A DNA stretch of 64,000 bases from Squalus acanthias. Lineage: Eukaryota. The first letter of the stretch is position 1. Each line of letters begins with the position of its first letter. The position numbers and the translations under genes were made by a program. Below the pieces are notes generated by a model. It had not been told where the DNA came from, searched no databases, and worked only from the letters and a program-made list of their open reading frames with translations. Shown piece by piece: positions 1,628-59,145 of the stretch. The stretch spans positions 19,964,001 through 20,028,000 of the forward strand of contig CM059438.1 in assembly GCA_030390025.1 (NCBI GenBank), in the 5' to 3' direction.

Positions 1628-1660
1628 ATGGGAAATGAAAGCAGTTCTGTGGGTGACCAG
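1628..1660 (+). CDS. TACC2: First coding exon of TACC2 long isoform (exon about 1575-1660, CDS from ATG 1628): MGNESSSVGDQ
   Basis: Acceptor tttttttcag ends at 1574, ATG context cacaATGG, and 33 coding nt end at CAG|gtgcgt (phase 0). The peptide matches the human TACC2 N-terminus as I recall it (MGNENSTSDNQ, also 11 codons before an intron). Confidence 0.8.
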
Positions 1661-4149
1661 GTGCGTCTGTGCTGACCTTTATTCTGAAGACCGGGCGTGT
1701 GTCTGGAAGTTACAGTGTGTAGTAATCAGTAAGTAATGTCAAAAGACTTTGAGCTCTCATGGCAGTGTTCCTGCATTCCAAGCAGGAAAGTACGTTTGAT
1801 GCTCAGCAATCAGAGACAGCCTTAAATGTTTCACTTACTATTCAGTCAGATGTTACCTGTGATTTTTAAATAAGCATATTTCGGAGTTCTCATATTTCTG
1901 TGAGGACTTTCCGACTTCAATCTGAAGAGATCTTCAATGATAAAACCCTATTCACACAAGTGACTATTTTATTAAGACCATGGGGTACAACACAGCTTTT
2001 ACTGCTGGACCATAGTAAAATGATTTGTGTGTCTGAAAATAAGTTGTATGGAGAAAGCTGGGGGAGAAAATGAGTAGATTTTGCCAGGTTAAATACTTGC
2101 CTAAAGTGTCAGTAAAATGTGACCTTGGTTAAATAACTGCATGCACAAATATTCTGTCTTGGCAAATTTTACTGAGCCTTTATCCCTGCAAAAATAATTT
2201 GTGCTTTTATTGGGAGACACAATTGTTGTGTGAACAGGGTTTAAGACAATTTAGAGAGCTCTGAGTCTTTACATTATGTATCCAGGACATAGATTTACAC
2301 GAGCTAATCCTTTTATGTTGTGGTTATTATGTATATGGACTGTTGCATTACTTACCACTGTACTATAATGCTTGCATCCAGAACGTTAACATAGAATAGA
2401 TCACAATTGTTAATTGTTATAGAATTCTAATCTTATTCCTTTTTCAGTTTGGATAGTAGTGATAGGTTCAAAGTCAGAGATTTTGCATGATGCATCCAAT
2501 TGGAGAAAGTAGCAAGGTTTAGTATAATGAACGTTCCAGTTGTTACGTTAAAATAAGAGACCGAGGGGTAATTTTCCAAGTAGACGTTGGCGGTTGGGAA
2601 CCTCACCTGTCACCGGCACATACTGATGACTTTCTCATCAAGATGTGGCGAGGCTGACTGGTTTAATCAGTTCTGGGCCCTTATTCCAGGAGCTATTCAT
2701 TAAAGCCTTTATCAGATAAACTGACCCTTTAAGTTTTAAATTCATTTCAAATAAGGCAGCTTGTAGAATGCGGGACTTTAACATACACGAGTGCCCATTC
2801 TCTTCATAAATTGGATAACTTCTTTTTATTAATTTATCTGCTAAAATTTGGAAATTCATCATTATGCAACTCAGAAGTTAACCGAAATGGATGTCGGTCA
2901 CTTTTTTTGACTTTCCTTATTTTTCAGTTATTTCTGCTCATTGTCAGTTTTCCCTCTGCTGCCCCAAAACGATCAACAGATGATGTAGGCCCGGGTATCT
3001 GTCAATGCAGCCTGAAGCTATTTGGTAGGAGACTTGTGAAAACAGCCCAAGATAAGTTGGCCCCCATTTTCCCTAAACCCAATGTTGCTGATCCACTTCA
3101 CTTTCACTCAGCACCAGCAGACAAACTGAGACTGTGATCCAGTCTGGGCCCTTCCACTGCACTTTGCACAGGGCTGCACATAGCTCTCGCTCGTTTGCTG
3201 GTGAATCATGTTTTTCAGAACTTGTTTGTTTGCTTTGGGAGGGTGAAGAGCTAGAAAAGCATTAGTCACTTTTGTTACAATGGCACCATGGGCAAATGAT
3301 GTGATCATGCACATTAGTGGGATTTATCTGATTGTATTCATAAACAATCAAAAAAAAGCTCGTCAGACATCTTTTCATGAAGGTATGTGTCTTTTAAATT
3401 TTTGGTGTGACCTATTGAATTAAAATGGCGATTTCAACTCTTGAAATTCTACAGTTAATAAATAAAGTTTGTGTGGTACCAATGCTACAGTAGGTTTGGC
3501 TGGTCAAACCTGTTAGTTTATTTACATTTTGATTCATTTTTTTAGCCAAAAGACACAATCACCTCATTACCTCCAAATCAGGAGACTACACAGGTACTGT
3601 TATATGGTGTTTGGCTAAAAATAGTTGCTCGCTGTCACCTCATGTGCTGGACTGGAACTTTGCATGGCTTGCTGTTTCTCATGTGCAAATCTTTTTTTTT
3701 TACAGTGACTATCATCCAGACTTCTCGTATTTCAGAAGTTTATTAAGTGCATGCAACCTCACATAAAGAAGCTGTAAAGGAACAGTTGGTGTTAGTTGGA
3801 CCAGAGTGTAATATTTTTCTGATCCACTTACTCAAAGTAGCAGCAATGCAAAACTGTAAGCATCAGCTGATAATAAACAGACAGCAGTAACACAGACTAA
3901 AACCAAACAGATACTGCTCACGTCACCTGCAGAGTTGTGTGCTGATGCAATGCATGGACCAAATGTACAACTGCGCTTTAAAATTGTCCTCTGTTGTGAG
4001 ATGCACATGTTGCGTATCAGCTTCACGTGTCGCTTTTACCGCAAGTATGGACATGTTGGGCGACCAATAGCAAGAGTGTCAGGGGCGGGCGGAGGTCATG
4101 TGATGATACCTCCAGGGGTATGTCCAACCAGAGTTGGCAACCCTAAACT

Positions 4150-12627: not shown

Positions 12628-12671
<44 letters not shown>
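12628..12671 (+). repeat. Poly-G homopolymer (44 nt)
   Basis: Direct observation. Confidence 0.95.
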
Positions 12672-13743: not shown

Positions 13744-13952
13744 GATACTTCAAAGGCACATAAAAAGAAGAAAGGCCCTCTAAGTGGATCGCGTTCAAGT
13801 AAATACAGTAAAAGTGAGCAGAATGTGAATGAAGAGCTGCCAGGCTTAAAGAGTACAGGAACGGCCAGTGATCAGGCCAATACGTCCCACACACATCCTG
13901 CCCCCGGTCTTCAGGGAGATAATATTGCTGCACCGGCTGCACAGCGTGTAAG
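13744..13952 (+). CDS. TACC2: Internal coding exon, 209 bp, phase 0 to 2: DTSKAHKKKKGPLSGSRSSKYSKSEQNVNEELPGLKSTGTASDQANTSHTHPAPGLQGDNIAAPAAQRV
   Basis: Pyrimidine tract ctttcttcctgttcaactgtag|, stop-free frame with low-complexity composition, donor AAG|gtagga. It supplies exactly the phase change needed between the first exon and the downstream phase-2 exons. Confidence 0.72.
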
Positions 13953-16271: not shown

Positions 16272-16690
16272 CAACAGCAACAACAACAACTTTAATTTAT
16301 AATGCAGTAAAACATCCCAAGGCGCTTCACAGGAGCATTATTAAACAAAATTTGACACCGAGCCACATAAGGAGATATTAGGGCAGGCGACCAAAAGCTT
16401 GGTCAAAAAAGTAGGTTTTAAGGAGCGTCTTAAAGGAGGGGAGAGAGGTAGAGAGGCGGAGAGGTTTAGGGAGGGAATTCCAGAACTTAGGGCCTCGGCA
16501 GCTGAAGGCACGGCCGCCAATGGTGGAGCGATTAAAATCGGGGATGCACAAGAGGCCAGAATTAGAGTAATGGAGAGATCTCGGAGGTTTGTAGGGCTGG
16601 AGGAGGTTACAGAGATAGGGAGGAGCGAGGCCATGAAGGGATTTGAAAACAAGGGTGAGTATTTTAAAATCGAAGCGTTGCCGGACCGGT
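16272..16690 (-). mobile_element. L2 LINE 3' fragment with (TTG)n tail
   Basis: FKILTLVFKSLHGLAPPYL...GGRAFS..PKFWNSLP..FKTLLKTY, plus (caa)n at 16272-16290. Confidence 0.88.
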
Positions 16691-16719
16691 GATCCAGAAA
16701 GCAAAGTTAAGGATGTTGT

Positions 16720-19700: not shown

Positions 19701-20822
19701 CTTTACAATCTATATTAACGATTTGGAGGAGGGGATCGAGTGTAACATATCAAAGTTTGCAGATGATACTAAGATGGGAGGGAAAGTAGTGAGTGAGGAG
19801 GACATAAAAAATCTGCAAGGGGACATAGACAGGCTAAGTAAGTGGGCAGAGATTTGGCAGATGGAATACAATACTGGAAAGTGTGAGGTTATGCACTTTG
19901 GCAGGAAAAATAGTAGAGCAAGTTATTATCTTAATGGCAAGAAACTGGAAAGTACTGAAGTACAAAGGGATCTGGGGGTCCTGGTGCACGAAACTCAAAA
20001 GGTTAGTATGCAGGTGCAGCAAGTGATTAAGAAGGCCAATGGAATGTTGGCTTTCATTGCTAGGGGGATAGAATATAAAAATAGGGAGGTGAAGCTTCAG
20101 TTGTACAAGGTATTGGTGAGACCGCACCTGGAATACTGCATACAGTTTTGGTGTCCATACTTAAGAAAAGACATACTTGCTCTCGAGTCAGTACAAAGAA
20201 GGTTCACTTGGTTAATCCCGGGGATGAGGGGATGGACATATGAGGAGAGGTTGGGTAGATTGGGACTCTACTCATTGGAGTTCAGAAGAATGAGAGGCGA
20301 TCTTATTGAAACATATAAGATTGCGAAGGGGTTGGATGCGGGGAGGATGTTCCCGATGACGGGTGAGACGAGAACTAGGGGACATAGTCTTAGAATAAGG
20401 GGCTGCTCTTTCAAAACTGAGATGAGAAGGAACTACTTCACTCAGAGGGTGGTAGGTCCATGGAATATGCTGCCCCAAAAAGCTGTAGAAGCTACATCAT
20501 TACATAAATTTAAAACAGAAATAGACAGTTTCCTAGAAGTAAAGGGAATTAAAGGTTACGGGGAGCGGGCAGGAATTTGGACATGAGTCTAGCTTCGGAT
20601 CGGTCATGGCCCTGTGGGTAGCGTAGCGGGCCCAGGGGCCGTGTAGCCTGATCCTGCTCCTATTTTGTGTGTCCAATTCTGTTAGGTTCAGGAGATGGTT
20701 CTGTGATAGTAGATTGGTGGTTAGGATCAGATCAGCCATGATCTTATTGAATGGCGGAGCAGGCGCGAGGGGCCAATTGGCCTACTCCTGCTCCTATTTC
20801 TTATGTTCTTATGTTCTTATGT
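16720..20822 (+). mobile_element. CR1-clade LINE, 5'-truncated but near full length (ORF1 with esterase, ORF2 EN+RT)
   Basis: ORF1 shows CDKC plus a zipper, GDSIIRG, HVGTND and DGLHL (SGNH esterase), with a stop at 17394 and a later frameshift. ORF2 shows [30 protein letters not shown] and KFADD. The 3' UTR hairpin and ttcttatg tandem tail are present. Confidence 0.95.
17643..20586 (+). pseudogene. CR1 ORF2 (AP endonuclease + reverse transcriptase) with a single +1 frameshift at the G/A run 18080-18091
   Basis: ORFs 17643-18113 and 18097-20586 join into a contiguous EN-RT protein. Confidence 0.9.
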
Positions 20823-25682: not shown

Positions 25683-25766
25683 CCTTGCCAGTGAAAGCAT
25701 CCCAACAGATCTTCAGGTAAAGCAGTGTGACTCTATTCAGGCTACAGCTGGACCTGTTGTTCCTGG
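25683..25766 (+). CDS. TACC2: Candidate symmetric (phase 2-2) 84-bp coding exon: (S)LASESIPTDLQVKQCDSIQATAGPVVP(G)
   Basis: Acceptor ttttattgacag|, donor GG|gtatgt, length divisible by 3 and open in the phase required by the neighbouring exons. An alternative donor CAG|gtaaag lies inside it. Confidence 0.55.
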
Positions 25767-26044
25767 GTATGTAAGCTAGTTGCCTGGGTGTGTGGTTTAA
25801 TAAAATAAATAATGCACGAACCTTCTATAGAATTTACTTTGTGACTGCAGTTTTATAGATTGATAAATGGAGTGGTCCATTGGTGTATCTCAACCTGTGA
25901 TTCATCCTCATTGTTGGAATGTCACTGTGGTTGCATACATTACTCTGTGCATGAACATTATGGAGTGGTTTTTTGCATATGTTATAAATATAAAATATAA
26001 AGATTGAAAATAATTTCCCCTGAAAGACCAAAGCTTAACTTAAT

Positions 26045-27085
26045 TAATGGGCAGCTACTCTAATTGGCAGGATGTGACTTGTGGTGTCCCACAAGGATCT
26101 GTGTTGGGGCCTCAACTATTCACCATATTTATTAATGATTTAGATGATGGGATAAAAAACCCCCACATATCCAAGTTTGCCGATGACACAAAAATAGGCG
26201 GCATTGTAAGCAGTGTAGATGGAAGCATGAAATTACAAAAAGATATTAATAGATTAAGTGAATGGGCAAAATTGTGGCAAATGGATTTCAATGTAGGGAA
26301 ATATGAAGTCATCCACTTTGGACCTAAAAAGGATAGAACAGAGTACTTTCTAAATGATGAAAAGCTAGAAACAGTGGAGGTCCAAAGAGACTTGGGGGTC
26401 CAGGTACATAGATCATTAAGATGCCATGGACAGGTACAGAAAATAATCAAAATGGCTAATGGAATGCTGGCCTTTATATTTAGAGGATTAGAATACAAGG
26501 GGGTAGAAGTTATGCTGCAGCTGTACAAAACTCTGGCAAGACCACACCTGGAGCACTGTGAGCAGTTCTGGGCACCACACCTTAGGAAGGATATATTGGC
26601 CCTGGAGGGAGTGCAGCGTAGGTTTACCAGAATGATACCTGGACTTCAAGGGTTAAGTTACAAGGAGAGATTACACAAATTAGGGTTGTATTCCCTGGAA
26701 TTTAGAAGGTTAAGGGGTGATTTGATCGAAGTTTTCAAGATTTTAAGGAGAACTGGTAGGGTCGATAGAGAGAAACTGTTTCCGCTGGTTGGGAGTCTAG
26801 GACTAGGGGGCTAAAAAATAGAGCCAGGTCTTTCAGGAGTGAAGTTAGGAAACACTTCTACACGCAAAGGGTGGTAGAAGTTTGGAACTCTCTTCTGCAA
26901 ATGGTAATTGATGCTAGATCAATTGTTAAATCTGAGATTGACAGATTTTTACTAACCAAAGGTATTAAGGAATATGGGAAAAGGCGGGTATGTGGAGTTA
27001 GGTCACAGATCAGCCTTGATCTCATTGAATGGCAGAACAGGCTTGAGGGGCTAAATGGCCTACTCCTGTTCCTATATTCCTATGT
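26045..27085 (+). mobile_element. 5'-truncated CR1 LINE (RT C-terminal half and 3' tail)
   Basis: [20 protein letters not shown] and RRLRGDLIE motifs; tail ggcctactcctgttcctatattcctatgt. Confidence 0.93.
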
Positions 27086-30454: not shown

Positions 30455-30628
30455 AAGGGGAAGCTGATGCATTTAAGATGAAGCTAGATAAACACTTGAG
30501 GGAGCAAAGAATAGAAGGTTAAGCTGATAGGGTTAGATGAAGACGGGTGTAGAGCATAAACACCGGCATGGACCAATTGGACCGAATGACCTGTTTCTGT
30601 GCTGTACATTCTATGTAATTCTATGTAA
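30455..30628 (+). mobile_element. CR1-type 3' end fragment
   Basis: gcatttaag...ctagataaa...ggaccgaatgacctgtttctgtgctgta followed by (attctatgt)2. Confidence 0.65.
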
Positions 30629-35284: not shown

Positions 35285-37095
35285 TTTGCATTTATACAGC
35301 GCCTTTATCACATCTTTGAGAACCATCTCAAAGTGCTTCACACAAATGATTTTTGAAATGCAATCGCTTTTGTCGTGTTGGCAAACGTGGCAGCCAATTT
35401 GCACACAGCGAAGACTCACAAACAGTAATGAGATGAATGATTACTTAATCTGCTTCAGGTGGTGTTGGTCGAGGGAACAATGTTGGCTAGGACACTTCAA
35501 ACAGTGCCATGGGTTCATTAATATCCACCTGAATGGTTTAACTTTTCAACTGAAGAACGGCAAATGTAACGCCCCTATTCAAGGAAGGAGGGAGACAGAA
35601 AGCAGGAAACTACAGGCCACTTAGCCTAACATCTGTCATTGGGAAAATGCTGGAATTCATTATTAATGAAGTAGAAGCAGGACATTTAGAAAATCATAAT
35701 ACAATCAAGCAGCGTCAACATGGGTTTATGAAAGGGAAATCGTGTTTGGCAAATTTATTAGAGTTCTTTGAGGATGTAACGAGCAAGGTGGATAAAGGGG
35801 AACCAGAAGATATAGTCTATTTGGATTTCCAAAAGGCATTCGATAAGGTGCCACATAAAAGGTTACTGCATAAGGTAAGAGCTCATGGTGTTGGGGTAAT
35901 ATATTAGCATGGATAGAGGATTGGCTAACTAACAGAAAACAGAGAGTCGGGATAAATGGGTCATTTTCAGGTTGGCAAACTAACTAGTGGGGTGCCACAG
36001 GGATCAGTGCTGGGGCCTCAACTATTTACAATCTATATTAATGACTTGGATGAAGGGACCGAGTGTACTGTAGGCAAACTTGCTGACGATACAAAGATAG
36101 GTGGGAAAGCAAATTGTGATGAGTCTGCAAAGGGATATAGATAGGTTAAGTGAGTGGGCAAAAATTTGGCAGATGAAGTATAATGTGGGAAAATGTGAGG
36201 TTATCCACTTTGGTGGGAAGAATAGAAAAGCAAAATATTATTTAAATGGAGAAAGACTACAGAATGCTGCAGTACAGAGGGATCTAGGTGTCCTCGTACA
36301 TGAAACATAAAAAGTTAGCATACAGGTACAGCAAATAATTACGAAGGCAAATGGAATGTTGGCCTTTATTGCAAGGGGGATGGAGTATAAAAGTAGGGAA
36401 GTCTTGCTACAACTGTACAGGGCGTTGGTGAGATCACACCTAGAGTACTGCATACAGTTTTGGTCTCCTTATTTAAGGAGGGATATACTTGTATTGGAGG
36501 CAGTTCAGAGAAGGTTCACCAGGTTGATTCCTGGGATGAAGGGGTTTTCTTATGAAGAAAGGTTGAGCAGGCTGGGCCTATACTCATTGGAGTTTAGAAG
36601 AATGAGAGGTGAACTTATAGAAACATATAGGATTCTGAGGGGGCTCGACAGGGTAGATGCTGAGAGGATGTTTCCCCTCATGGGGGAATCTAGAACTAGG
36701 GGGCACAGTTTCAGAATAAGGGATCGCCCATTTAAGACAGAGATGAGGAGAATTTCTTCTCTCAGAGGGTCATGAAACTTTGGAATTCTCTACCCCAGAG
36801 AGCTGTGGAGGCTGAGTCATTGAATATATTTAAGGCTGAGATAGACAGATTTTTGAACTACAGGGGAAGCAAGGGTTATGGGGAACAGGCAGAAAAGTGG
36901 GGTTGAGGCCAAGATCAGATCAGCCATGATCTTATTGAATGGCGGAGCAGGCTCGAGGGGCTGAATGGCCTACTCCTGTACCTGTTTCTTATGTTCTTAT
37001 GTTCTTACGGCACCTCTGACAGTGCAACGCTCCCTGAGTACTACACTGCATTGTTAGTTTAGATTATATGTTGAAATCCTGGAGTGGAATTTGGT
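35285..37095 (-). mobile_element. Deu-SINE split by the CR1 insertion (halves 35285-35562 and 37007-37095)
   Basis: The two halves are collinear with the 21470-21890 copy. Confidence 0.72.
35557..37006 (+). mobile_element. 5'-truncated degenerate CR1 LINE nested in a Deu-SINE
   Basis: Fragmented RT ORFs ([30 protein letters not shown]) and (ttcttatg)n tail ending near 37006. Confidence 0.93.
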
Positions 37096-39512: not shown

Positions 39513-42500
39513 CCCCAAAACAAGTGACAATGATGTCCACTCTCCTGAAACTAATACTGAAAACAACCTGAATTCAACATCTCAAGAAATCCTGGTGGGA
39601 CAAAATGATGCATCACCAGAATGCAAAGGAAAAGCAAATCTTCAAATCACGGCAGATCCAAAGTCCCCTTTATTAGCTGAAAATAAAAATAGCTTATGGT
39701 CTTTACCGGAAGATACTGCATTTAAAGGAGATGCCTTGAAAGTAAATAATATATTCGGTGAGACAAAAACTACCGGGGCAGCAGATACTGGTCACGGCCT
39801 GAAAGCCAGTTCCTTACCAGTACAAGGAAATACTCCAGCGAGTGCAGCCGAGGAAAGGTTGTCAGATCTATTGCATCATGGCGAGCAGCTGGACGAAACA
39901 GATGAGCAGGGCTCTTACCCTTCACCTCAGGGCACAGTTGGGAGAGATCAGTTACCTGCCCAAGAGACTGAGTGCGACCTAGTGTTGCAAGTCTCAGGAT
40001 GCAAAGAATCCATCATAGAAGAAAATCCTGCAAAAAGCACAGATGGCAAAAGCGGTCTGTTCATGGTAGAAATCCAAGACCCAAAGTATCTGACGCCAGC
40101 GAGTTTAGAAAAACATGCTGAGTATGTGACAATTGCAGGTCACAATGTTATCAGTCATTCACAAGTCAAAGTTGAAAATGAGCAGCTCACTGAAGAAGTG
40201 GTCACTGATCAAGAAGAAAAGTGCGTTTTGCCAAAGGAAGGTTCTATTTCAGTCTCAGAATCTGCGCTAAATTTGTCTGAGGGAGTGGCACTCGAGGGGA
40301 ATGAGTTGAGTTTGAGTTGTGATACTGATCACCATCAAACATCTAACGGTGAAGAAAACGATTGCAGTCTTCTGACGGGTACAGAAAATCAAAGAAGCCC
40401 TGCAAAAATGGAGTTACTCAACATCCGCGCATCAGATCTTGATACTGCTAAACTGAATGTGACACTGTTAGCAGTCGGTGATAAGCAACAGAAAACACAC
40501 AACACCAAAGAACAAGAAAATATCTCCACGGAAAATGTCTCCAGCCTTGTAGCTCGGATGGAGAATATTCCAGAAACCGTCGTGCTGTCCTCAATCCAGC
40601 AGAATCCCAGTACTGGGAGAACACAAGAAAAACTAATGGGTTTCAGTTGCGACAGTGAACAGGGTCAAATATGCGATCAGGAAACAAAAACGACTGCTGG
40701 CAAAGGAGATTTGGGCAGTCTTGAAATGCAAATCGAAAATATCGTACTTCCAATCAACCCTCAAAACCTTGCTGCATTGGAGCCGAAAGAGACAGCATTT
40801 GTTGTCAAAAGCGAACAGCAGATATGTCGCAGTGAATCAAAAGGAAAGGTTTGTGAAGACAATGTGTGGAATCTTCAGGAATCCACCAAGTCAGCACTGA
40901 GTTATCAGGATACTTATTCAGAGAAAGCACGAAATGAGCCGCTGGGTTGCTGCTGTGACAGTAACCAGCAAACACGAGGCAGTGAGAAGCAAGCAAAAGC
41001 TTCCGAAGAAAAATTATCCAGTGTGCAGATTGACACAGAGAACTATTCTTTCCCAGAAACGTCCGAACTGACACTATGTCAGGACTTGGACTTAGTGGAA
41101 GTAAAAGAAATGTTACTGGGTTTCCAAAGCGACCAGCAAGTCTGCAGCACTGAAAAACAAGATGGCAGACCCGAGAAAAGCGGGCGCACCCTTCAAACTG
41201 GTCTGGAAAATGGGCTGTTGTCAGATCGAATGGGACTGTCTTCTAGCTCTCAGAATCCTGATTCGATGGAAGTGAAAGGAAAAATACTGAATTTAACCTC
41301 TCCTAGCGAACAGCAAGAAGACACCAGTGAGATACAAAATCAAGTCTGTGAGGAGGGGTTGTCTGAGGAGGGGCTGTCCTGCTTGCAAAAGGACATGGTT
41401 CTAGAAAGCAAGATGTTTCCAGACGCGTTTGAGCTGACCCGAAGCTCTCAGACTCCTGACACATTGGGTGTAAATGAGGTATCGGTTTTCAGTACTGAGC
41501 AACAGCAGGCAGGTAACAGCCTGACAAAAGAAAACATTTGTGAAGGAATTGTGTGTAGCCTTCACACTGTATGTGCGGAATCACCACCTAGCTCACAGAT
41601 TCCTGGTACAGTTATACCAAAAGAGACACTATTATCTGTCACTAATACACAGCAAGCATGTAGCAGCGAAAAGAAAGAGAAGGCTTCTAAAGAAAACCAG
41701 TATGACTTGCAGACTAGGTTGGAAAGTTCCACATTCCCAGAAAGCAGTGAATTATTGCTTAACCTTCAAAACTGTGGTTCAAAAGAAGCAACAAAGGAGA
41801 AACTATCAGATTTCAGACATTTCACTGGACAAACATCGACATGCACTACAGAAACACTCTGTCAAGAAGATCTGAGCAACATTCAGATGATAAAAAATAT
41901 TATAATCCCAGCAGCCATGCAGCTGCCAGCTGGCTCGGACCTTCGTGGTACAGCTGAAGTGAAAGAGTCATTAATGTCTGTCAGTAGTGAACAGACATGC
42001 AGCAGTGAAAAGCAAGAGAAAGTGTCTGAAGGAAATGTGTACAGCCCTCCAGCTACTATGGAAAGTACTTTGTTTTCAGAAACGGCAGATTTACCACTTG
42101 CTCCTCAGAATATTGGCTCAGCAGGCACAGAAAATGAACAGTCGCGTTTGAGCCACGGCAGTGTACAGCAAACAGCAGAGAGAGAAATCAAAGAACATCC
42201 CGATAAAGGAGAAGTGTGCAGCCTTCAGATTGATCGGCGAGATATGATTTCAGAAAGAGTGGAATCATTGCTGGCCTCTCAGCATATTGCTGGCGCTGGA
42301 GTGAAAGAGGCATCACTGACCTTGAGTGGTGAACAACTACAACTGTTCATCAGTGAAGAACAGCAAAAGGATTATGAGGGGGACGTACGCAGCCTCCAGG
42401 AAGGTCCTGAAGATACTGTACCGTCAACAAGCACAGAATTAGCACTGAACCCTCAGGATGCTACAAGTAAAGAAGAGTTGTTGGAGGGATTTGCTCATGA

Positions 42501-45500
42501 GCAACAGCAAATGTGTGACAGTGAGTTCAAAGTGGGCCTCTATAAAATGGATTCAGACAGCCCTCAGATGCCTGTAGAAAATATTATCACTCCAGAAGTC
42601 ACTAAATTACCACTTAGCACGCAGAATCCTAATGCAGTGGAACATGGAGAGTTATTAATGGGATTTAGCAACGAACAGCAGCAGGCAGGCAGTGAGATAG
42701 CCAAAGAAAAAGACTGTGAAGAAAACGTACAGAACCTTCAGACTGACACCGAGAAGGTCGTGGATTTGTCACCCAGCTCCGCGATTCCTGGTATTGATGA
42801 ACTAACAGAAACGTTGTTTAGCCAGAGAGAACAGCAAATATGTGACAAAGAAAAACAAGAAAAGGTGTCTGAAGACAAAATTTACAACTTCCCAATTGGT
42901 ACAGAAACCAGTTTGTTCCAACTTACCGAGGAGTTACCTCCTACCACTCAGAATATTGGTTCAATAGCTACAGAAAATGAACTGTTGCCTTTGAGTTATG
43001 ATAGCGGACAGGAAACAGCACATGGGGAAATAGAAGAAAATCTCTCTAAAGAAAAATTGTTCAGCTTTCCGACTGATCGAGGAGGTATGATCCCAGAAAG
43101 AGCGGTACTGCTGCCTGCCTCTCAGCATACTGCTGGCGCTGGAGTGAATGAGGCATTACTGACCTTGAGTGGTGAACAAGTACAAACATTCGTTAGCGAA
43201 CAACAGCAAAAGGATTATGAGGGGGATGTGTGCAGTCTCCAGGAAGGTCCTGAAGATACTGTACTGTCAGCAAGCACAGAATTAGCACTGAATCCTCAGG
43301 ATGCTACAAGTAAAGAAGAAACATCAGAGGGTTTTGATTGTTCTGCTGAGCAACAGCAAATGCGTGACACTGAATTCAAGCATGGACTCCCTAAAAAGAA
43401 TTTAGACAAGTCTCAAATATCTTTGGAAAACATCTTTCCTCAAGAATCCATAAAGTTGTCAATCGACGTAGAGAATCCTGATGTAGAGGAACAAAGCAAT
43501 AAATTACTGGGAGACAGTGAGATAAAAGAAAACATATTTGAAGCAAATGAGCAAAACCTTCAGACTGAGGCTGGACACATTTCAACCCCAGAAGTACTGA
43601 AATCACCAGCCAGCTGCCTGGATCCTGATACTACAAAACTGAAAGAAACAATAATTGGATTCAGTAGTGAACATCAGCAAGTAGATGACAATAGGAAACA
43701 AGAAGTGACTGAAGAAAATCTGTGCTGCTTTCACACTGCTACAGAAAGTATGGACAATATTTTGATCCCGAAAGCTATGGAATTGGCAAAAGACCTTCAG
43801 GATTCCGGTACGAATGAAATGAAAGAGGAACTTTTGGGCTTTGGCATTGATAGAAAGCAGCAACAAATAGCCACAAAAGTAATAGAAGACAACTACTATG
43901 AAGAAAATGTAGGTTGTCTTCAACAAGGTGAAGAAAATATTCCAGAACCCGCAACCACAGAATGCACTGCTCAGTATCCTAATACTGAGGCATTGAAAGA
44001 GAGATTGATGAATTTCAATGGTGATGTGGAACATCAGCAAACGTGTGGGAGTGCAACAAAAGTAAATATTTGTGCTGAAGGTATGAGCAGTCTTCAGGTG
44101 GGTATGGAAACCACCCTTCCAGAATCCATCACATTGACACAGAGTCCTCCCATTCCTCAGGCACTTGAAGAAAATGATATATCTCTGGAATTCAGCAATG
44201 AACAACACCAAATCTACAGTAGTCCAACAGAAGAAAAAATCTATGAGGACAATGTGTGCAGTCTTCTGAGCATTATTGAAAATGTAGCTGCACCGACTAT
44301 AGAATTGTCAGCTGGCCCAGAGAATCAGCGCATAGAGGAGGCAACGGAAAACACACTGGGGTTCAGCTGTGAAAATGACCAGCAGGAAAAATGCAGTGAT
44401 GAAACGAAAGAGAAAACTTGTGAAGAAAATGTACACAGCTTCCAAATGGATACAGCAGACGCCCTCCCAGAAACCATAGAACAGATTCCCACCGTAGTGA
44501 CTCATAGTACGGCAGAAGTGAAAGAAGCATTACCTGGTTTTATTAATGAACAACAGCAAATATGTATCATTGAGGCAAAAGAAAATGTCTGTGAAGAAAA
44601 CCTTTGTAGGCTTCAGATGGTTAAAGACAATATTGTACTTTCAGAAGTCTTTGAACTGACTCCTGGCTCACAGAGTCCTGACACATCCAAAGAAACTTTA
44701 TTGGCAGTTGTTAGTGAACAACTGCAAACAGGTGTCAGTGTAATGAAAGACAACGTTCCTGAAGACAATATGTGGAGCCTTCAGACAGGTACTGAGCATA
44801 CTGTACCCGCAGGAACCATGGAACTGACAGCTAGCCTTCAGAATCATGATGAAGAGAAAGGAAAAGAGACGTTACTGAGATTTCGTGGGGATCTAAAACA
44901 AGAACTCATACTCAACAATGAATCAAAAGAAAATCTTCATGAAGAGAATATGCAGGTGTCAAAAACAAGTACAGAAGACATTAAGCTCTCAGTGAGCAAG
45001 GAATTGACAGATTGCACACAGGACCTTAATACTGCTGTCCTGCCAGAGAACGTAATGGGTTTCAGTGGTGAACATCAAGCAGAAAGCATGGACAGCCTCC
45101 AAGTTGGCAATGCAAATAATTTGTTTCCAGAAACCATCAAATTGATACCTGGTATTCAGATTCCTGATGGAGTGAATGAGGCATTACTGACCTTGAGTGG
45201 TGAACAAGTACAAACATTCGTTAGTGAAGAACAGCAAAAGGATTATGAGGGGGATGTGTGCAGTCTCCAGGAAGGTCCTGAAGATACTGTACCGTCAGCA
45301 AGCACAGAATTAGCACTGAATCCTCAGGTTGCTACAAGTAAAGAAGAAACATCAGAGGGTTTTGATTGTTCTGCTGAGCAACAGCAAATGCGTGACACTG
45401 AATTCAAGCATGGACTCCCTAAAAAGAATTTAGACAAGTCTCAAATATCTTTGGAAAACATCTTTCCTCAAGAATCCATAAAGTTGTCAATCGACGTAGA

Positions 45501-48500
45501 GAATCCTGATGTAGAGGAACAAAGCAATAAATTACTGGGAGACAGTGAGATAAAAGAAAACATATTTGGAGCAAATGAGCCAAACCTTCAGACTGAGGCT
45601 GGACACATTTCAACCCCAGAAGTACTGAAATCACCAGCCAGCTGCCTGGATCCTGATACTACAAAACTGAAAGAAACAATAATTGGATTCAGTAGTGAAC
45701 ATCAGCAAGTAGATGACAATAGGAAACAAGAAGTGACTGAAGAAAATCTGTGCTGCTTTCACACTGCTACAGAAAGTATGGACAATATTTTGATCCCGAA
45801 AGCTATGGAATTGGCAAAAGACCTTCAGGATTCCGGTACGAATGAAATGAAAGAGGAACTTTTGGGCTTTGGCATTGATAGAAAGCAACAACAAATAACC
45901 ACAAAAGGAATAGAAGACAACTACTATGAAGAAAATGTAGGTTGTCTTCAACAAGGTGAAGAAAATATTCCAGAACCCGCAACCACAGAATGCACTGCTC
46001 AGTATCCTAATACTGAGGTATTGAAAGAGAGATTGATGAATTTCAATGGTGATGTGGAACATCAGCAAACATGTGGGAGTGCAACAAAAGTAAATATTTG
46101 TGCTGAAGGTATGAGCAGTCTTCAGGTGGGTATGGAAACCACCCTTCCAGAATCCATCACATTGACGCAGAGTCCTCCCATTCCTCAGGCACTTGAAGAA
46201 AATGATATATCTCTGGAATTCAGCAATGAACAACATCAAATCTACAGTAGTCCAACAGAAGAAAAAATCTATGAGGACAATGTGTGCAGTCTTCTGAGCA
46301 TTATTGAAAATGTAGCTGCACCGACTATAGAATTGTCAGCTGGCCCAGAGAATCAGCACATAGAGGAGGCAACGGAAAACACACTGGGATTCAGCTGTGA
46401 AAATGACCAGCAGGAAAAATGCAGTGATGAAATGAAAGAGAAAACTTGTGAAGAAAATGTACACAGCTTCCAATTGGATACAGCAGACGCCCCCCCAGAA
46501 ACCATAGAACAGATTCCCACCGTAGTGACTCATAGTACGGCAGAAGTGAAAGAAGCATTACCTGGTTTTATTAATGAACAACAGCAGATATGTATCATTG
46601 AGGCAAAAGAAAATGTCTGTGAAGAAAATCTTTGTAGGCTTCAGATGGTTAAAGACAATATTGTACTTTCAGAAGTCTTTGAACTGACTCCTGGCTCACA
46701 GAGTCCTGACACATCCAAAGAAACTTTATTGGCAGTTGTTAGTGAACAACTGCAAACAGATGTCAGTGTAATGAAAGACAACGTTCCTGAAGACAATATG
46801 TGGAGCCTTCAGACAGGTACTGAGCATACTGTACCCGCAGGAACCATGGAACTGACAGCTAGCCTTCAGAATCATGATGAAGAGAAAGGAAAAGAGACGT
46901 TACTGAGATTTCGTGGGGATCTAAAACAAGAACTCATACTCGACAATGAATCAAAAGAAAATCTTCATGAAGAGAATATGGAGGTGTCAAAAACAAGTAC
47001 AGAAGACATTAAGCTCTCAGTGAGCAAGGAATTGACAGATTGCACACAGGACCTTAATACTGCTGTCCTGCCAGAGAACGTAATGGGTTTCAGTGGTGAA
47101 CATCAAGCAGAAAGCATGGACAGCCTCCAAGTTGGCAATGCAAATAATTTGTTTCCAGAAACCATCAAATTGATACCTGGTATTCAGATTCCTGATGGAG
47201 TGAACGAGGCATTACTGACCTTGAGTGGTGAACAAGTACAAACATTCGTTAGTGAAGAACAGCAAAAGGATTATGAGGGGATGTGTGCAGTCTCCAGGAA
47301 GGTCCTGAAGATACTGTACCGTCAGCAAGCACAGAATTAGCACTGAATCCTCAGGTTGCTACAAGTAAAGAAGAAATATCAGAGGGTTTTGATTGTTCTG
47401 CTGAACAACAGCAAATGCGTGACACTGAATTCAAGCATGGACTCCCTAAAAAGAATTTAGACAAGTCTCAAATATCTTTGGAAAACATCTTTCCTCAAGA
47501 ATCCATAAAGTTGTCAATCGACGTAGAGAATCCTGATGTAGAGGAACAAAGCAATAAATTACTGGGAGATAGTGAGATAAAAGAAAACATATTTGGAGCA
47601 AATGAGCAAAACCTTCAGACTGAGGCTGGACACATTTCAACCCCAGAAGTACTGAAATCACCAGCCAGCTGCCTGGATCCTGATACTACAAAACTGAAAG
47701 AAACAATAATTGGATTCAGTAGTGAACATCAGCAAGTAGATGACAATAGGAAACAAGAAGTGACTGAAGAAAATCTGTGCTGCTTTCACACTGCTACAGA
47801 AAGTATGGACAATATTTTGACCCCGAAAGCTATGGAATTGGCAAAAGACCTTCAGGATTCCGGTACGAATGAAATGAAAGAGGAACTTTTGGGCTTTGGC
47901 ATTGATAGAAAGCAACAACAAATAGCCACAAAAGTAATAGAAGACAACTACTATGAAGAAAATGTAGGTTGTCTTCAACAAGGTGAAGAAAGTATTCCAG
48001 AACCCACAACCACAGAATGCACTGCTCAGTATCCTAATACTGAGGCATTGAAAGAGAGATTGATGAATTTCAATGTTGATGTGGAACATCAGCAAACGTG
48101 TGGGAGTGCAACAAAAGTAAATATTTGTGCTGAAGGTATGAGCAGTCTTCAGGTGGGTATGGAAACCACCCTTCCAGAATCCATCACATTGACACAGAGT
48201 CCTCCCATTCCTCAGGCACGTGAAGAAAATGATATATCTCTGGAATTCAGCAATGAACAACACCAAATCTACAGTAGTCCAACAGAAGAAAAAATCTATG
48301 AGGACAATGTGTGCAGTCTTCTGAGCATTATTGAAAATGTAGCTGCACCGACTATAGAATTGTCAGCTGGCCCAGAGAATCAGCACATAGAGGAGGCAAC
48401 GGAAAACACACTGGGGTTCAGCTGTGAAAATGACCAGCAGGAAAAATGCAGTGATGAAACGAAAGAGAAAACTTGTGAAGAAAATGTACACAGCTTCCAA

Positions 48501-51154
48501 TTGGATACAGCAGACGCCCTCCCAGAAACCATAGAACAGATTCCCACCGTAGTGACTCATAGTACGGCAGAAGTGAAAGAAGCATTACCTGGTTTTATTA
48601 ATGAACAACAGCAAATATGTATCATTGAGGCAAAAGAAAATGTCTGTGAAGAAAACCTTTGTAGGCTTCAGATGGTTAAAGACAATATTGTACTTTCAGA
48701 AGTCTTTGAACTGACTTCTGGCTCACAGAGTCCTGACACATCCAAAGAAACTTTATTGGCAGTTGTTAGTGAACAACTGCAAACAGGTGTCAGTGTAATG
48801 AAAGACAACGTTTCTGAAGACAATATGTGGAGTCTTCAGACAGGTACTGAGCATACTGTACCCGCAGGAACCATGGAACTGACAGCTAGCCTTCAGAATC
48901 ATGATGAAGAGAAAGGAAAAGAGACGTTACTGAGATTTCGTGGGGATCTAAAACAAGAACTCATACTCGACAATGAATCAAAAGAAAATCTTCATGAAGA
49001 GAATATGCAGGTGTCAAAAACAAGTACAGAAGACATTAAGCTCTCAGTGAGCAAGGAATTGACAGATTGCACACAGGACCTTAATACTGCTGTCCTGCCA
49101 GAGAACGTAATGGGTTTCAGTGGTGAACATCAAGCAGAAAGCATGGACAGCCTCCAAGTTGGCAATGCAAATAATTTGTTTCCAGAAACCATCAAATTGA
49201 TACCCGGTATTCAGATTCCTGATGCAAAGGATGTGAATGTCATATCGATTTTAACTAGTGAGCAACAGCAGATGTGCAGCAGTGTAATTAAAGAGGAAGA
49301 AGCATATGGAAAAGCTGTACATATCTCGCAGAGCGCTGTGGAAAATATTATTATCCCTGAAAGTATGAAATTGGCATCAACACCTCAGGATTCTGACACC
49401 TCTGAACTGATGGCTTTCAGTAATGAGCATCAGCAGATATGTAGCAGTGGAATGAAAACAGAAACCTGTAAAGAAGATGATTATATAAAAAATAACTTAT
49501 ATCCAGACATCACCATGATATTACCATCTAGCCCTCCAAAAAAGGATAAAATGGACTTTAGGGAGAAGCTATCAGATGTCAGTTGGAATACTGAACAGCA
49601 ACATTGGAACATTGAAGTACACGACGACATCTCAGAAATGAACATGTTAAAATTAAAGGCCAATACAGAAATCGCCACACCCTCAGAAGCAATAAAATTG
49701 CCATCCAACTTGCAGATTCATGAGCTGGAGAATGGAAAAGATTATTTATTGGCTTTCACTTTTGATGGTGACAAGAGTCAAATTTCCAGCGGAGAACCAA
49801 AAGAAAAACTCTTTAAAGAAGATGTGAGCAGCCTGAAGATGGGTGGAGAAAGTATAATCCCAGAAGCCAATAAACCGACAGCCATGCCTCAGGACCCTGA
49901 AGAAGTAGAGCTGAAGGGAACATCATTGGACTTTGAGAACGAACAACAGCAGACCTGCAACACTGAAAGCAAAGAAGTGAGCAACCTTCTAACTGACACT
50001 GATAATATTTCAACCCAAGAAACTATGGAACTGCTATCTAACTCCCAGAAATGTGATACTGAGAAAGATGAAGATAAATTATTGGGTTTCAGCCATGACA
50101 CTGAACAACAGACATGCGATGGCGAAACAAAAATAAATATCTTCAAAGAAAATGCATGCATCGATAAGATGGGTATAGAAAACTCTGTTCATCCAGAAAG
50201 TGTGAAATTGTTATCTAGCTCTGATATTGCTACTGAACTGCAAGAGACTACAAACAATTTTCTTAGTGAAGTTCAGCAAATATCCACCACTGAAACAAAA
50301 GAAAACTTCTGTGTTGAAAATGTACATAGTCTTGAAAATATAATTCCAGAATCCAATGAGCTATCTTCCAGTTCCTTGCATTCTGACGCAACAATAAAAG
50401 AGGATATTTTAAGGCAAAGGCATGACAGTGAGGAACAACAGACCCTGAACATGAGTGGAAAAGAAAGTGTTTACGCAAATGGTGTTGAGAGCATGGAAAA
50501 AGGCATGACTTTTGGAATAGATCCCGAGATAAAGTTTCCTCTTTGCACTCCGACTGTTTCTGAAGCTGTGGAAATAAACCAGTTATTGGCTGCAACATCA
50601 GATAGTGAGCATCAACAGAGAAATGACAATCTAATTTCACATAGTACCTGCGAAGAGAAAGTAAGTTTGGAGATGGATTTTGCTTTCGGAAGTGATAAGC
50701 TCCCAGAGGCAGTGGAGAAAGAGACCACCTCTGCAGGAGGCACAGACTATAAAAACTATGCTGCCTCTCAGGAAACTCAGCTTACAAAATCCATGACAAC
50801 TAAAAGCAAGGAACCCAGCAGCTCAACCGAACACCTGCTCTTGTTGCGCACAAGAGATGCAACAGAAAGTTGCTTAGAAATTGATGTCAAAGAACAGGAA
50901 AACATTGTGGGTGTTCTACCAACAGGGAATTTTGCTGGAATAGATCAAACTTCCATTAAAAAAGAGTCCTGTATGTCTGATACTGAATTTGGAAATGAGT
51001 TCTTATTTGCAATAGAACCAACAGCCAGACCAGAAGGCAGATCCCCGCACACATTAGCAGATGTAAAGGAAGAGGGGGTTTTGCCAGCTGCATGTGAAAA
51101 CACTGAAGTCAGAAAAACTGAAACAGGACTTAAAGAAGGATTAAAGACTGAAAG
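39513..51154 (+). CDS. TACC2: Giant coding exon (11642 bp, or 11643 bp = 3881 codons if one G is restored) encoding an acidic, repetitive, probably disordered region
   Basis: Acceptor cactattaacag| at 39512, with the frame open from there (PKTSDNDVHSPETNTENN...). Covers ORFs 39595-47340 and 47283-51221, joined by one 1-bp frameshift. Donor AAG|gtacat at 51155, phase 2-2. Position and phase match the ~5 kb giant exon of mammalian TACC2 as recalled. Confidence 0.85.
43141..49223 (+). repeat. Coding tandem repeat: 3 x 2028 bp (676 aa); copies start at 43141, 45169 and 47197
   Basis: ggagtgaa(t/c)gaggcattactgacc recurs at exact 2028-bp spacing, translations are nearly identical, and the third copy is 1 bp short. 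Confidence 0.97.
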
Positions 51155-51275
51155 GTACATAGGTCCTTGCTTCTATACTTTACCACATAAATGTATTTAT
51201 ATTGTTATCAAACGGTTGTAATAAGAGTATTCCATTTTTCTAACTGTTCTTTTTCCTGCTCTCTGTTGACTGTAG

Positions 51276-51386
51276 TCCTTCTCCTGAATCTGCCTCTTCT
51301 TCACCTTCTGCACTTGGAAAGGATGCTGTGGCTGTAATTGGCACAGTAACAACAGGTGCACTGGATAAAGGCATCATGACCACAAG
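51276..51386 (+). CDS. TACC2: 111-bp symmetric exon after the giant exon: (S)PSPESASSSPSALGKDAVAVIGTVTTGALDKGIMTT
   Basis: Strong pyrimidine tract and tgtag|, donor AAG|gtagaa, 121-bp upstream intron. The pattern PSxxxKDAxxVxxxVT matches the recalled human TACC2 post-giant-exon peptide PSVPKKDAPRVMDKVT. Confidence 0.75.
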
Positions 51387-51454
51387 GTAGAAAAAGACAG
51401 TAATAGTTGGACAAACTGGCATCCAGCCTAAATTAATGAATCTTTGTACATAGT

Positions 51455-51770
51455 TAGAACCATAGATGTTTACAGCACAGAAAGAGGCCCTTTGGCCCAT
51501 TGTGTCTGTGCCTGCTCTTGGCTGGATCAAACTAATTCTAATCCCACTGCCCGGCTCCCTCCCCATATCCCTGCATCTTTCTCTGCTTCAAAATGTATCC
51601 GTTTTTCCCATAAATGATACACTAGTCTCGGCTTCAACTGCTCTCTGTGGCAACGCATTCCATGCTCCAACAAGTGCAAAGACATTTCTCTTCACCTCTC
51701 TCCTCACTCTCTTAGTGACAATTTTAAATTGGTGATTCCTCATCACTGTCGCCCCCAACCAGAGGAAATA
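51455..51770 (-). mobile_element. Old CR1 3' fragment
   Basis: catagatgtttacagcacagaaagaggcccttttggccc-type tail and degenerate RT end. Confidence 0.55.
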
Positions 51771-53409: not shown

Positions 53410-53705
53410 TCCAGCCCTACAACCCTCCGAAATCTCTGTGCTCCACCATTGGCGGCCGTGCCTTCAGCTGCCAAGGCCCTAAGCTCTGGAATTCCCTCCC
53501 TAAACCTCTCCGTCTCGCTATCTCTCTCTCTGCCTTTAAGACACTCCTTAAAACCTACCATTTTGACCAAGCTTTTGGTCATCTGCCCTAATATCTCCTT
53601 ATGTGGCTTGGTGTCAAATTTTGTTTGATAACGCTCGTGTGTAGCGCCTTGGGACGTTTTACTACGTTAAAGGTGCTATATAAATGCAAATTGTTGTTGT
53701 TGTTG
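53410..53705 (+). mobile_element. L2 LINE 3' fragment
   Basis: Reverse complement of the 16272-16620 family, ending aaatgcaaattgttgttgttgttg. Confidence 0.85.
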
Positions 53706-58859: not shown

Positions 58860-59145
58860 ATCATAGAAACATAGAAACATAGAATCTAGGAGCAGGAGTA
58901 GGCCATTCGGCCCATCGAGCCTGCTCCGCCATTCAATACGATCATGGCTGATCATCCAAATCCAGTACCCTATCCCTGCTTTAATCCCCACAGTACACAT
59001 ATCCCACCCTACCCCCGTAACCCCACGTATTTAATTCCCCCTAACATATCCTATCCTATCCCCATAACCCCACATATTTAATCCCCCCTAACACTAAGGG
59101 TCAATTTATCATAGCCAAATCAACCTAACCCACACATTTTTTGCA
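58860..59145 (-). mobile_element. CR1-type 3' tail joined to a V-SINE/HE1-like segment
   Basis: (catagaaa)n tail and CR1 hairpin (aggagtaggccattcggccc..gagcctgctccgcc), then gggtcaatttatcatagccaa.tcaacctaacc. Confidence 0.6.

What the first reader, a model, noticed from the sequence alone, without database searches (positions are those of the whole stretch)
40290..50680. Uncharacterised ~56-aa protein repeat in roughly 60 copies
Across the exon a monomer recurs with approximate consensus KExLLGFSxEQQQxCxxExKExxxEENVxSLQxxxENxxxPExxELxxxxQxPxxxE. Examples: EMLLGFQSDQQVC, ELLMGFSNEQQQ, EALPGFINEQQQIC, DKLLGFSHDTEQQTC. By eye there are about 17 monomers before the triplicated block, 36 within it and about 9 after. 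Hydrophobic anchors (LLGF, VxSL, PExxEL) and frequent cysteines persist despite heavy divergence. Inference: this could be an array of short linear binding motifs, or simply the fossil of old amplifications.
Basis: partly seen in the sequence, partly recalled or inferred. Interest (0 to 1): 0.75.

Follow-up and report, generated by a model that had tools for sequence, protein, structure and literature searches.

The report
Ancient repeat in shark TACC2 exon
The giant middle exon of the shark TACC2 gene is built from about 62 worn copies of a 57-amino-acid unit missing from Pfam; the copies are slowly decaying rather than kept as binding motifs, which suggests that this floppy acidic region began as an old tandem amplification.

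Summary
The repeat is real. An 11.6-kb coding exon (39513-51154) of a shark TACC2 gene holds 62 monomers of about 57 aa: 17, then a 12-monomer block in three copies, then 9. It has no Pfam, PDB or Atlas match and no predicted fold. The same monomer order occurs in sharks, skates and rays, and less cleanly in chimaera. A faint trace survives in coelacanth, so the array probably predates the shark/bony-fish split. Several shark lineages show their own in-register block duplications. The frame and acidic composition are conserved (dN/dS about 0.5). Best reading: a decaying amplification that serves as a long acidic disordered arm. The frameshift at 47277-47280 is probably an assembly error. One probable RNA run from a related organism joins the exon's end to its own start, a back-splice that would give an in-frame, stop-free circle. 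The scan had not noted this before.

The parts
1628..1660 (+). First coding exon of TACC2 (11 codons, then a GT donor)
   Evidence: Motif scan; matches the N-terminus of shark TACC2 models
3546..3593 (+). Small optional exon (5' edge read from the AG in the sequence)
   Evidence: tblastn with P0123 and P0014; sequence
13744..13952 (+). Coding exon of 209 nt, ends in phase 2
   Evidence: tblastn 76-88% identity; splice ends
25683..25766 (+). Optional 84-nt symmetric exon
   Evidence: tblastn; ends; absent from model P0123, present in P0014 and P0003
39513..51154 (+). Giant internal coding exon, phase 2-2; 11642 nt as assembled, 11643 nt (3881 codons) with the base that the public runs carry
   Evidence: ORFs; AG/GT ends; collinear orthologues; both ends used as splice sites in a probable RNA contig
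40303..43149 (+). Repeat monomers 1-17; monomers 11-14 and 16-19 are an older duplication (75% DNA identity)
43140..49224 (+). Recent triplication of a 2028-bp block (monomers 18-29), 36 monomers
   Evidence: raised word depth and junction-sized contigs in public runs
47277..47280 (+). One-base shortfall in a G run of block copy 3 that shifts the frame; probable assembly error
   Evidence: Copies 1 and 2 have one more G; in 4 of 4 runs the listed contig that spans the run has the extra G
49236..50732 (+). Last nine monomers (30-36, one weak copy at 50403-50576, and 37)
51276..51386 (+). Next small coding exon (111 nt); the rest of the gene, with the TACC coiled coil, lies beyond the window
   Evidence: tblastn; orthologues carry PF05010; no later exon found in the window with P0014 and P0123 as queries

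Best explanation
The array is the surviving trace of how the giant alternative exon of TACC2 was built. A unit of about 171 bp was amplified in frame to about 38 copies, mostly in one burst. This happened before the chimaera/shark split and probably before the split from bony fishes. Since then the copies have drifted almost uniformly, and selection keeps the reading frame and the bulk character (acidic, E/Q-rich, poor in aromatics and Arg) rather than a motif per copy. The product is a disordered acidic arm of about 3900 aa in front of the C-terminal TACC coiled coil. It most likely acts as a long spacer or charge brush that sets reach, spacing or condensate behaviour of the long isoform. The old homology between copies still seeds unequal crossing-over, so blocks of 3, 5 or 12 monomers re-amplify in separate shark lineages. 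Shown: the repeat, collinearity, decay, purifying selection at the protein level, no predicted fold, in-register duplications. Inferred: the burst timing, unequal crossing-over as the mechanism, equivalence to human exon 4, and the spacer role.
For: Monomer types 1-37 are collinear in full-length shark and batoid models and, less cleanly, in Callorhinchus. The paralogue tree is nearly a star, with internal branches 20% of its length. Match to consensus at anchors falls from 0.58 in the window to 0.41-0.43 in batoids, tracking root-to-tip length (rho -0.93, 13 sequences). Site-rate variation is low (gamma alpha 5.2 under JTT; 18 under an exon-derived matrix). The anchor excess matches a position-blind simulation. 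F, P and G are not protected while E and Q are the slowest residues, unlike a folded domain. AlphaFold gives pLDDT 35 for a trimer alone and 50, pTM 0.17, for a dimer with 15 aligned rows. Charge-hydropathy falls on the disordered side. dN/dS is 0.48 for the older duplication (Fisher p 5e-5). Net charge per residue stays at -0.07 to -0.12 in all 19 sequences tabulated, from sharks to mammals. The coelacanth exon scores 72.8 bits against at most 23.2 in about 195 shuffles per setting (16.0 against at most 10.6 with the bias correction), and two neighbouring hit spacings are 58 and 116 aa.
Against: Columns differ among paralogues more than position-blind decay predicts: column SD 0.193 against 0.12-0.15, and alpha 13.9 against 22.8 or more, in 12 of 12 simulations. 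Anchor leucines are retained better than expected (+0.122 against +0.02 to +0.03, SD 0.05-0.06). Changes toward the consensus are 1.27 times chance against 1.09-1.13 (SD about 0.09) in simulations. The trace in amniotes is doubtful: forward beats reversed in 91 of 106 related proteins without the bias correction but in only 30 of 106 with it, and profile-profile comparison is not significant. The coelacanth exon does not align to the shark exon profile as a whole. No cross-species dN/dS was possible. The spacer role has no direct test.
Confidence: 0.68

Rival explanations
1. The array is a multivalent string of weak binding sites: each monomer offers a low-affinity Leu/Gln-centred site for one partner. 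Redundancy lets single copies decay, while avidity favours gains in copy number.
For: Residual column heterogeneity among paralogues. Leucine anchor excess of about 1.9 SD. A slight excess of changes toward the consensus. Repeated whole-monomer amplifications in several sharks.
Against: No column passes family-wise correction (best p 0.21). Substituted hydrophobic anchors are not replaced by hydrophobics significantly more often (p 0.10). LC8, clathrin-box and FFAT patterns have 0 matches and LIR is depleted; patterns recalled. The consensus decays with branch length, and the signal is nearly gone in bony vertebrates.
Confidence: 0.22
2. Each monomer is a small folded or fold-on-binding unit (a helical or beta-zipper repeat), and the array forms a rod.
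For: Hydrophobic positions recur at fixed spacing; low-confidence models draw helices.
Against: pLDDT 35-50 and pTM 0.17-0.24. Frequent indels, with lengths of 44-65 aa. Aromatic, Gly and Pro positions are not protected. No PDB or Pfam relative. The alignment used for folding was shallow, so this is weak evidence.
Confidence: 0.05
3. The exon matters mainly as RNA: it is back-spliced into a circle, and protein-level constraint is secondary.
For: A contig of run X6 ends exactly at the exon donor (51154) and continues with the first 27 bases of the exon (39513-39539). No X6 contig lies on the next exon. Inverted repeats flank the region.
Against: One contig in one run of a related organism, and the run is RNA only by guess; X8 has no cover there. 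Long single exons are known to circularise as a class (PMC6376117, passages). dN/dS of about 0.5 and the intact frame in 15 orthologues point to selection on protein.
Confidence: 0.05

Closest known systems
TACC2 long isoform (human 5.3-kb exon 4; TACC_C, PF05010)
   Same: Same gene: N-terminal exons match and orthologues carry PF05010. Human TACC2 has isoforms with and without a 5.3-kb fourth exon (PMC8087818, Introduction). The bulk acidic composition is similar.
   Different: The shark exon is 11.6 kb and visibly repeated. Mammalian TACC2 proteins gave no domain hit with the profile. Equivalence to exon 4 is inferred from position and length, not from alignment.
Giant alternatively spliced exons encoding disordered regions (giant ankyrins, titin PEVK, MAP long forms; recalled, giant ankyrin-B seen only in a search listing)
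   Same: One very long internal exon that adds thousands of disordered residues to a cytoskeletal adaptor. Database names such as 'titin homolog' and 'futsch-like' for shark TACC2 models probably reflect this bulk likeness.
   Different: No sequence relation: the monomer profile finds only chondrichthyan TACC2 among 1.84 billion representatives, apart from two weak primate ANKRD30 repeat hits at E 8e-5 and 5e-4.
Multivalent motif arrays in disordered proteins (LC8-binding TQT arrays, clathrin-box arrays, Ki-67 repeats; recalled)
   Same: Regularly spaced short hydrophobic and Gln-centred words in an acidic disordered chain.
   Different: The canonical patterns are absent, and the anchors are barely more conserved than spacers.
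Single-exon circular RNAs from long exons
   Same: Exact donor-to-own-acceptor junction; a long exon with a long upstream intron, as described for the class (PMC6376117, passages).
   Different: At about 11.6 kb it is far longer than the reported averages of 404-709 nt; the downstream intron is only 121 nt; the circle would be in frame with no stop codon. Circularity itself was not tested.

Membership tests
TACC2 orthologue | C-terminal TACC coiled coil (PF05010) | not testable with these tools
   It lies beyond the window and no genome is held; 11 of 11 proteins matching the exon carry PF05010
TACC2 orthologue | TACC2-type N-terminal exons and collinearity with annotated TACC2 | tested here: met
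   Amblyraja and Callorhinchus hits are named TACC2 by their sources
Described protein repeat family (Pfam/PDB) | Match to a curated model or solved chain | tested here: not met
   0 of 33 monomers gave a credible family; best E 0.0015 to an unrelated enzyme in a single member. Whole ORFs below all cut-offs. PDB 0 hits. Atlas no usable hit
Short linear motif array | Motif positions clearly more conserved across species than spacers | tested here: not met
   An anchor rate of 0.85-1.0 of the spacer rate fits; 0.7 is disfavoured; 0.5 is rejected
Short linear motif array | A partner that binds the motif | not testable with these tools
LC8/DYNLL-binding array | [KR]xTQT-type anchors (pattern recalled) | tested here: not met
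   0 strict matches; 2 loose against 5.6 expected; columns 30-32 show no conservation excess
Folded tandem-repeat (solenoid) protein | Confident fold and a protected hydrophobic core | tested here: not met
   the alignment was shallow (15 rows)
Intrinsically disordered acidic region | Low hydropathy, net charge, few aromatics, no confident fold | tested here: met
   Hydropathy 0.424 below the boundary 0.452, net charge -0.107; aromatics 3.5%. Prediction only
Single-exon circRNA | Back-splice junction at canonical splice sites | tested here: met
   One contig of run X6 in a related organism
Single-exon circRNA | Covalently closed, RNase R-resistant RNA, and no tandem genomic copy of the exon | not testable with these tools
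   Only assembled contigs were available; the run is RNA by guess

The most novel reading that the evidence does not exclude
The 57-aa unit is an undescribed low-affinity binding module whose copy number is tuned by selection in sharks (37 to 62 copies). The exon that holds it is also released as an 11.6-kb stop-free, in-frame circular RNA that can be translated round and round into an open-ended acidic repeat polymer. The human 5.3-kb TACC2 exon would be the worn descendant of this module array.
Probability: 0.06. Interest if true: 0.85.

Novelty: new member of a known kind. Interest (0 to 1): 0.42.

Why it matters
It gives a concrete origin for a giant vertebrate exon of unknown use: in-frame tandem amplification, still legible in slowly evolving cartilaginous fishes, faint in coelacanth and not detectable in mammals. 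It is a natural data set for how a disordered region keeps charge and length while losing sequence, with about 38 paralogous and 13-15 orthologous versions of each position. It corrects misleading database names ('titin homolog', 'futsch-like') and a probable frameshift error in the assembly. The back-splice lead makes a very large, stop-free circle directly testable.

Tried and rejected
Known family: Pfam on both ORFs and on 33 monomers, PDB with the monomer profile, and two ESM Atlas look-ups gave nothing usable. The two ANKRD30 hits among 1.84 billion representatives are weak (36-38 bits summed over 4-9 stretches) and I read them as compositional. LC8, clathrin-box, LIR, FFAT, SIM, SUMO and TRAF6 patterns (recalled) are not enriched; SxIP (6 against 2.3 +/- 1.5) and acidic dileucine (9 against 5.0 +/- 2.4) are mildly high among 14 patterns tried and were not pursued. 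Special role for cysteines: not retained above other positions. Pseudogene reading of the frameshift: rejected because 4 of 4 runs carry the extra base. The first 'toward consensus' test (p 0.0005) shrank to about 2 SD once a simulation showed the bias in it. A homologue search with the coelacanth exon returned only itself, so gar, bichir, lungfish and amphibians were not examined. Profile-profile comparison with 31 sauropsid and 15 mammal exons was not significant. The first trimer alignment was out of register and was not used. No RNA holder is on record for this stretch; this is no evidence on expression. Literature: nine searches listed no paper on a repeat in this exon or on a TACC2 circle; most were seen as listings only. 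The 2004 paper on TACC gene evolution was not held and the 2003 TACC2 cloning paper was seen only as a citation; either could mention repeats. No supplements were read.
Full report
THE GENE. The window holds the 5' part of a TACC2 gene on the + strand. Short coding exons lie at 1628-1660, 3546-3593, 13744-13952 and 25683-25766. A giant exon runs from 39513 to 51154, and a 111-nt exon follows at 51276-51386. All 11 proteins found with the exon are chondrichthyan and carry the TACC coiled coil PF05010. I did not determine the species. The best-scoring relative in the profile search was a Pristiophorus model. Human TACC2 has three isoforms with a 5.3-kb fourth exon and five without it (PMC8087818, Introduction read). 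I take the shark exon to be its equivalent by position and length only.

An iterated profile finds 61 monomers at 40306-50732, and a weak 62nd lies at 50403-50576. The median unit is 57 aa (range 44-65, first 29 spacings). In a hold-out test 37 of 37 monomer types beat all 200 shuffles. Monomer types are 27% identical on average. Monomers 18-29 form a 2028-bp block in three copies at about 98.8% identity.

ASSEMBLY CHECKS. Copy 3 lacks one G at 47277-47280, which breaks the frame. I laid 4 of the 22 listed runs on 47170-51450. In 4 of 4, the listed contig that spans the G run has the extra base, so the break is probably an assembly error; contigs drop rare variants, so a private allele is not excluded. 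Word depth over the block is 37.6 against 14.2 on the single-copy tail in X1, 29-35 against 11-21 in X2, and 70-95 against 17-23 in X6. Short contigs sit on the 29-to-18 junction in X1 and X6. This fits a real multi-copy block. The tool warns that depth is not copy number, these contigs are too short to count as bridging, and X1 or X2 may be the window's own source.

NOT A DESCRIBED FAMILY. Pfam gave nothing credible for the two ORFs or for 33 monomers (near-duplicate and weak types were left out of the 33). PDB gave 0 hits and the Atlas no usable hit. The monomer profile run over 1.84 billion representatives returned 6 proteins: 4 chondrichthyan TACC2 models and 2 weak primate ANKRD30 repeats. 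Nine literature searches listed no description of this repeat (mostly listings). The 2004 paper on TACC evolution was not held.

HISTORY OF THE ARRAY. All 14 chondrichthyan proteins scanned hold 19-57 monomers; reversed and shuffled controls gave 0. Monomer types run in the same order 1-37 in full-length shark models, with some types missed in batoids and many uncertain calls in Callorhinchus. The paralogue tree is nearly a star (internal branches 5.6 of 28.2), apart from the older duplication of 11-14 to 16-19 (75% DNA identity). Recent block amplifications, all in register with the monomer, are: window 18-29 x3, Heptranchias 14-18 x5, Pristiophorus 14-18 x2, Cetorhinus 26-28 x6, and Carcharodon 26-28 about x4 in a partial model. 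Copies within those four other species are mostly 91-100% identical. Two Scyliorhinus models have 2-3 extra monomers. Heterodontus (partial model), Mustelus, Chiloscyllium, Stegostoma and four batoids show no block amplification. I did not check the other species' assemblies. Unequal crossing-over between homologous monomers is my inference.

Among 106 bony-vertebrate TACC2 proteins, Latimeria gave 3 domain hits, two others gave 1 each, and one shuffled control gave 1. The Latimeria exon scores 72.8 bits against a shuffle maximum of 23.2, or 16.0 against 10.6 with the bias correction. Two neighbouring hit spacings are 58 and 116 aa; five others are 153-249. The amniote signal depends on the bias correction (91 of 106 against 30 of 106 forward over reverse; the sequences are not independent), and profile-profile comparison was not significant. 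So the array certainly predates the chimaera split and probably the split from bony fishes.

ARE THE ANCHORS CONSTRAINED? I aligned 13 sequences without using the repeat profile, on a species tree written from recall, with extra block copies left out. Site rates are nearly uniform (alpha 5.2). Anchors run at 0.986, spacers at 1.036 and the non-repeat ends of the exon at 0.938. Matching residue types, anchors are retained 4.7 points better (permutation p 0.014; second contrast p 0.063). A position-blind simulation already gives 3.5-4.2 points (SD about 2) because of how sites are conditioned. With the rate matrix taken from non-anchor sites, the data fit anchors at 0.85-1.0 of the spacer rate, disfavour 0.7 and reject 0.5. 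Match to consensus falls steadily with branch length, from 0.58 to about 0.42 (rho -0.93), although chimaera stays at 0.42 despite the longest branch. No column passes correction (best p 0.21). Results against pure decay: anchor leucines are about 1.9 SD above the null, changes toward consensus about 2 SD above, and paralogue columns are more uneven than in 12 of 12 simulations. Indels and alignment to the profile could cause the last; mild or early constraint could too. Ancestral states were not inferred, so the direction of single changes is open.

WHAT IS UNDER SELECTION. The coding frame has 0 stops over 7.7 kb against 229 and 145 in the other frames. The older duplication has dS 0.58 and dN 0.28, ratio 0.48 (p 5e-5). 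The recent copies have 11 silent changes of 33, against 20% expected (p 0.055). E and Q are the slowest residues (0.59, 0.52), while F, P and G are not protected and R is fastest. Net charge per residue is -0.07 to -0.12 in all 19 sequences tabulated, from sharks to rat. AlphaFold finds no fold. In Xenopus the C-terminal region alone drives microtubule plus-end tracking (PMC5063610, passages; that study used a 1168-aa form), so the giant exon is an add-on to a working core. The simplest reading is a long acidic disordered arm that sets reach or spacing for the long isoform. That role is inferred, not shown.

A SIDE FINDING: BACK-SPLICING. In run X6 (a related organism, RNA by guess) one contig ends at the exon's donor, 51154, and continues with 27 bases identical to the exon's first bases, 39513-39539. 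With 31-base words, a break after 27 bases is what a competing linear junction from the 13744-13952 exon would cause, since the two upstream ends share three bases (inference). X6 has no contig on the intron or on the next exon. X8 has no cover at that end. The exon is phase 2-2 and 11643 nt with the extra base, so the circle would be in frame and free of stops. Inverted repeats pair the upstream introns with the downstream one (230 nt at 91%; 86 nt at 86%), but they also bracket the small next exon. Long single exons are known to circularise (PMC6376117, passages). A cardiac circRNA paper did not mention TACC2 in its main text (PMC7407233, passages). This is one contig, and circularity was not tested.

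VERDICT. The repeat is real and absent from the libraries and searches I could run. It belongs to a known kind, the degenerate tandem repeat in a giant disordered exon. The motif-array idea is weakly supported at best. The value lies in the evolutionary record, the recurrent block amplification and the testable circle. No earlier finding of this scan covers it.

Noticed in passing
window 51154 joined to 39513 (run X6, contig 24): Exact back-splice junction of the whole giant exon; the circle would be 11643 nt, in frame, with no stop codon.
   Followed up: partly
window 47277-47280: One-base shortfall in a G run breaks the ORF; all four laid runs carry the extra base, so it is probably an assembly error.
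   Followed up: yes
window 50411-50416: All four laid runs lack 6 bases that the window has (an in-frame indel in the weak monomer); several substitutions at 50551-50757 are also shared by the runs that cover them.
   Followed up: no
window 16690-20820: A near full-length LINE-like element with ORF1-like and endonuclease/reverse-transcriptase-like frames (838-aa frame at 18070-20586); CR1/L2 type by recall. Shorter copies at about 26044-26814 and 35560-37010.
   Followed up: no
window 16300-16529 with 53440-53669; 36918-37003 with 58868-58953; 30565-30606 with 51471-51512: Inverted interspersed repeats that bracket the giant exon and could favour back-splicing.
   Followed up: partly
P0014, P0003, P0015, P0123: Other sharks show their own near-identical block amplifications of 5 or 3 monomers; their models are named 'futsch-like', 'titin homolog' or 'uncharacterized' although they are TACC2. 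The Pristiophorus model stops before the coiled coil.
   Followed up: partly
P0026 1466-1495, with matches in P0019 and P0020: One short stretch resembling the head of the repeat is shared by turtle, alligator and bird TACC2; it may be a conserved motif or the last surviving monomer (profile-profile E 0.04, not significant).
   Followed up: partly
window 39513-51154: The exon is A-rich on the sense strand (36% A; 35% A at four-fold sites against 28% in introns) and has three times the intron density of GAAGAA, which may help define so long an exon.
   Followed up: no
window 12628-12671: A run of 44 G in the intron, possibly an assembly artefact.
   Followed up: no
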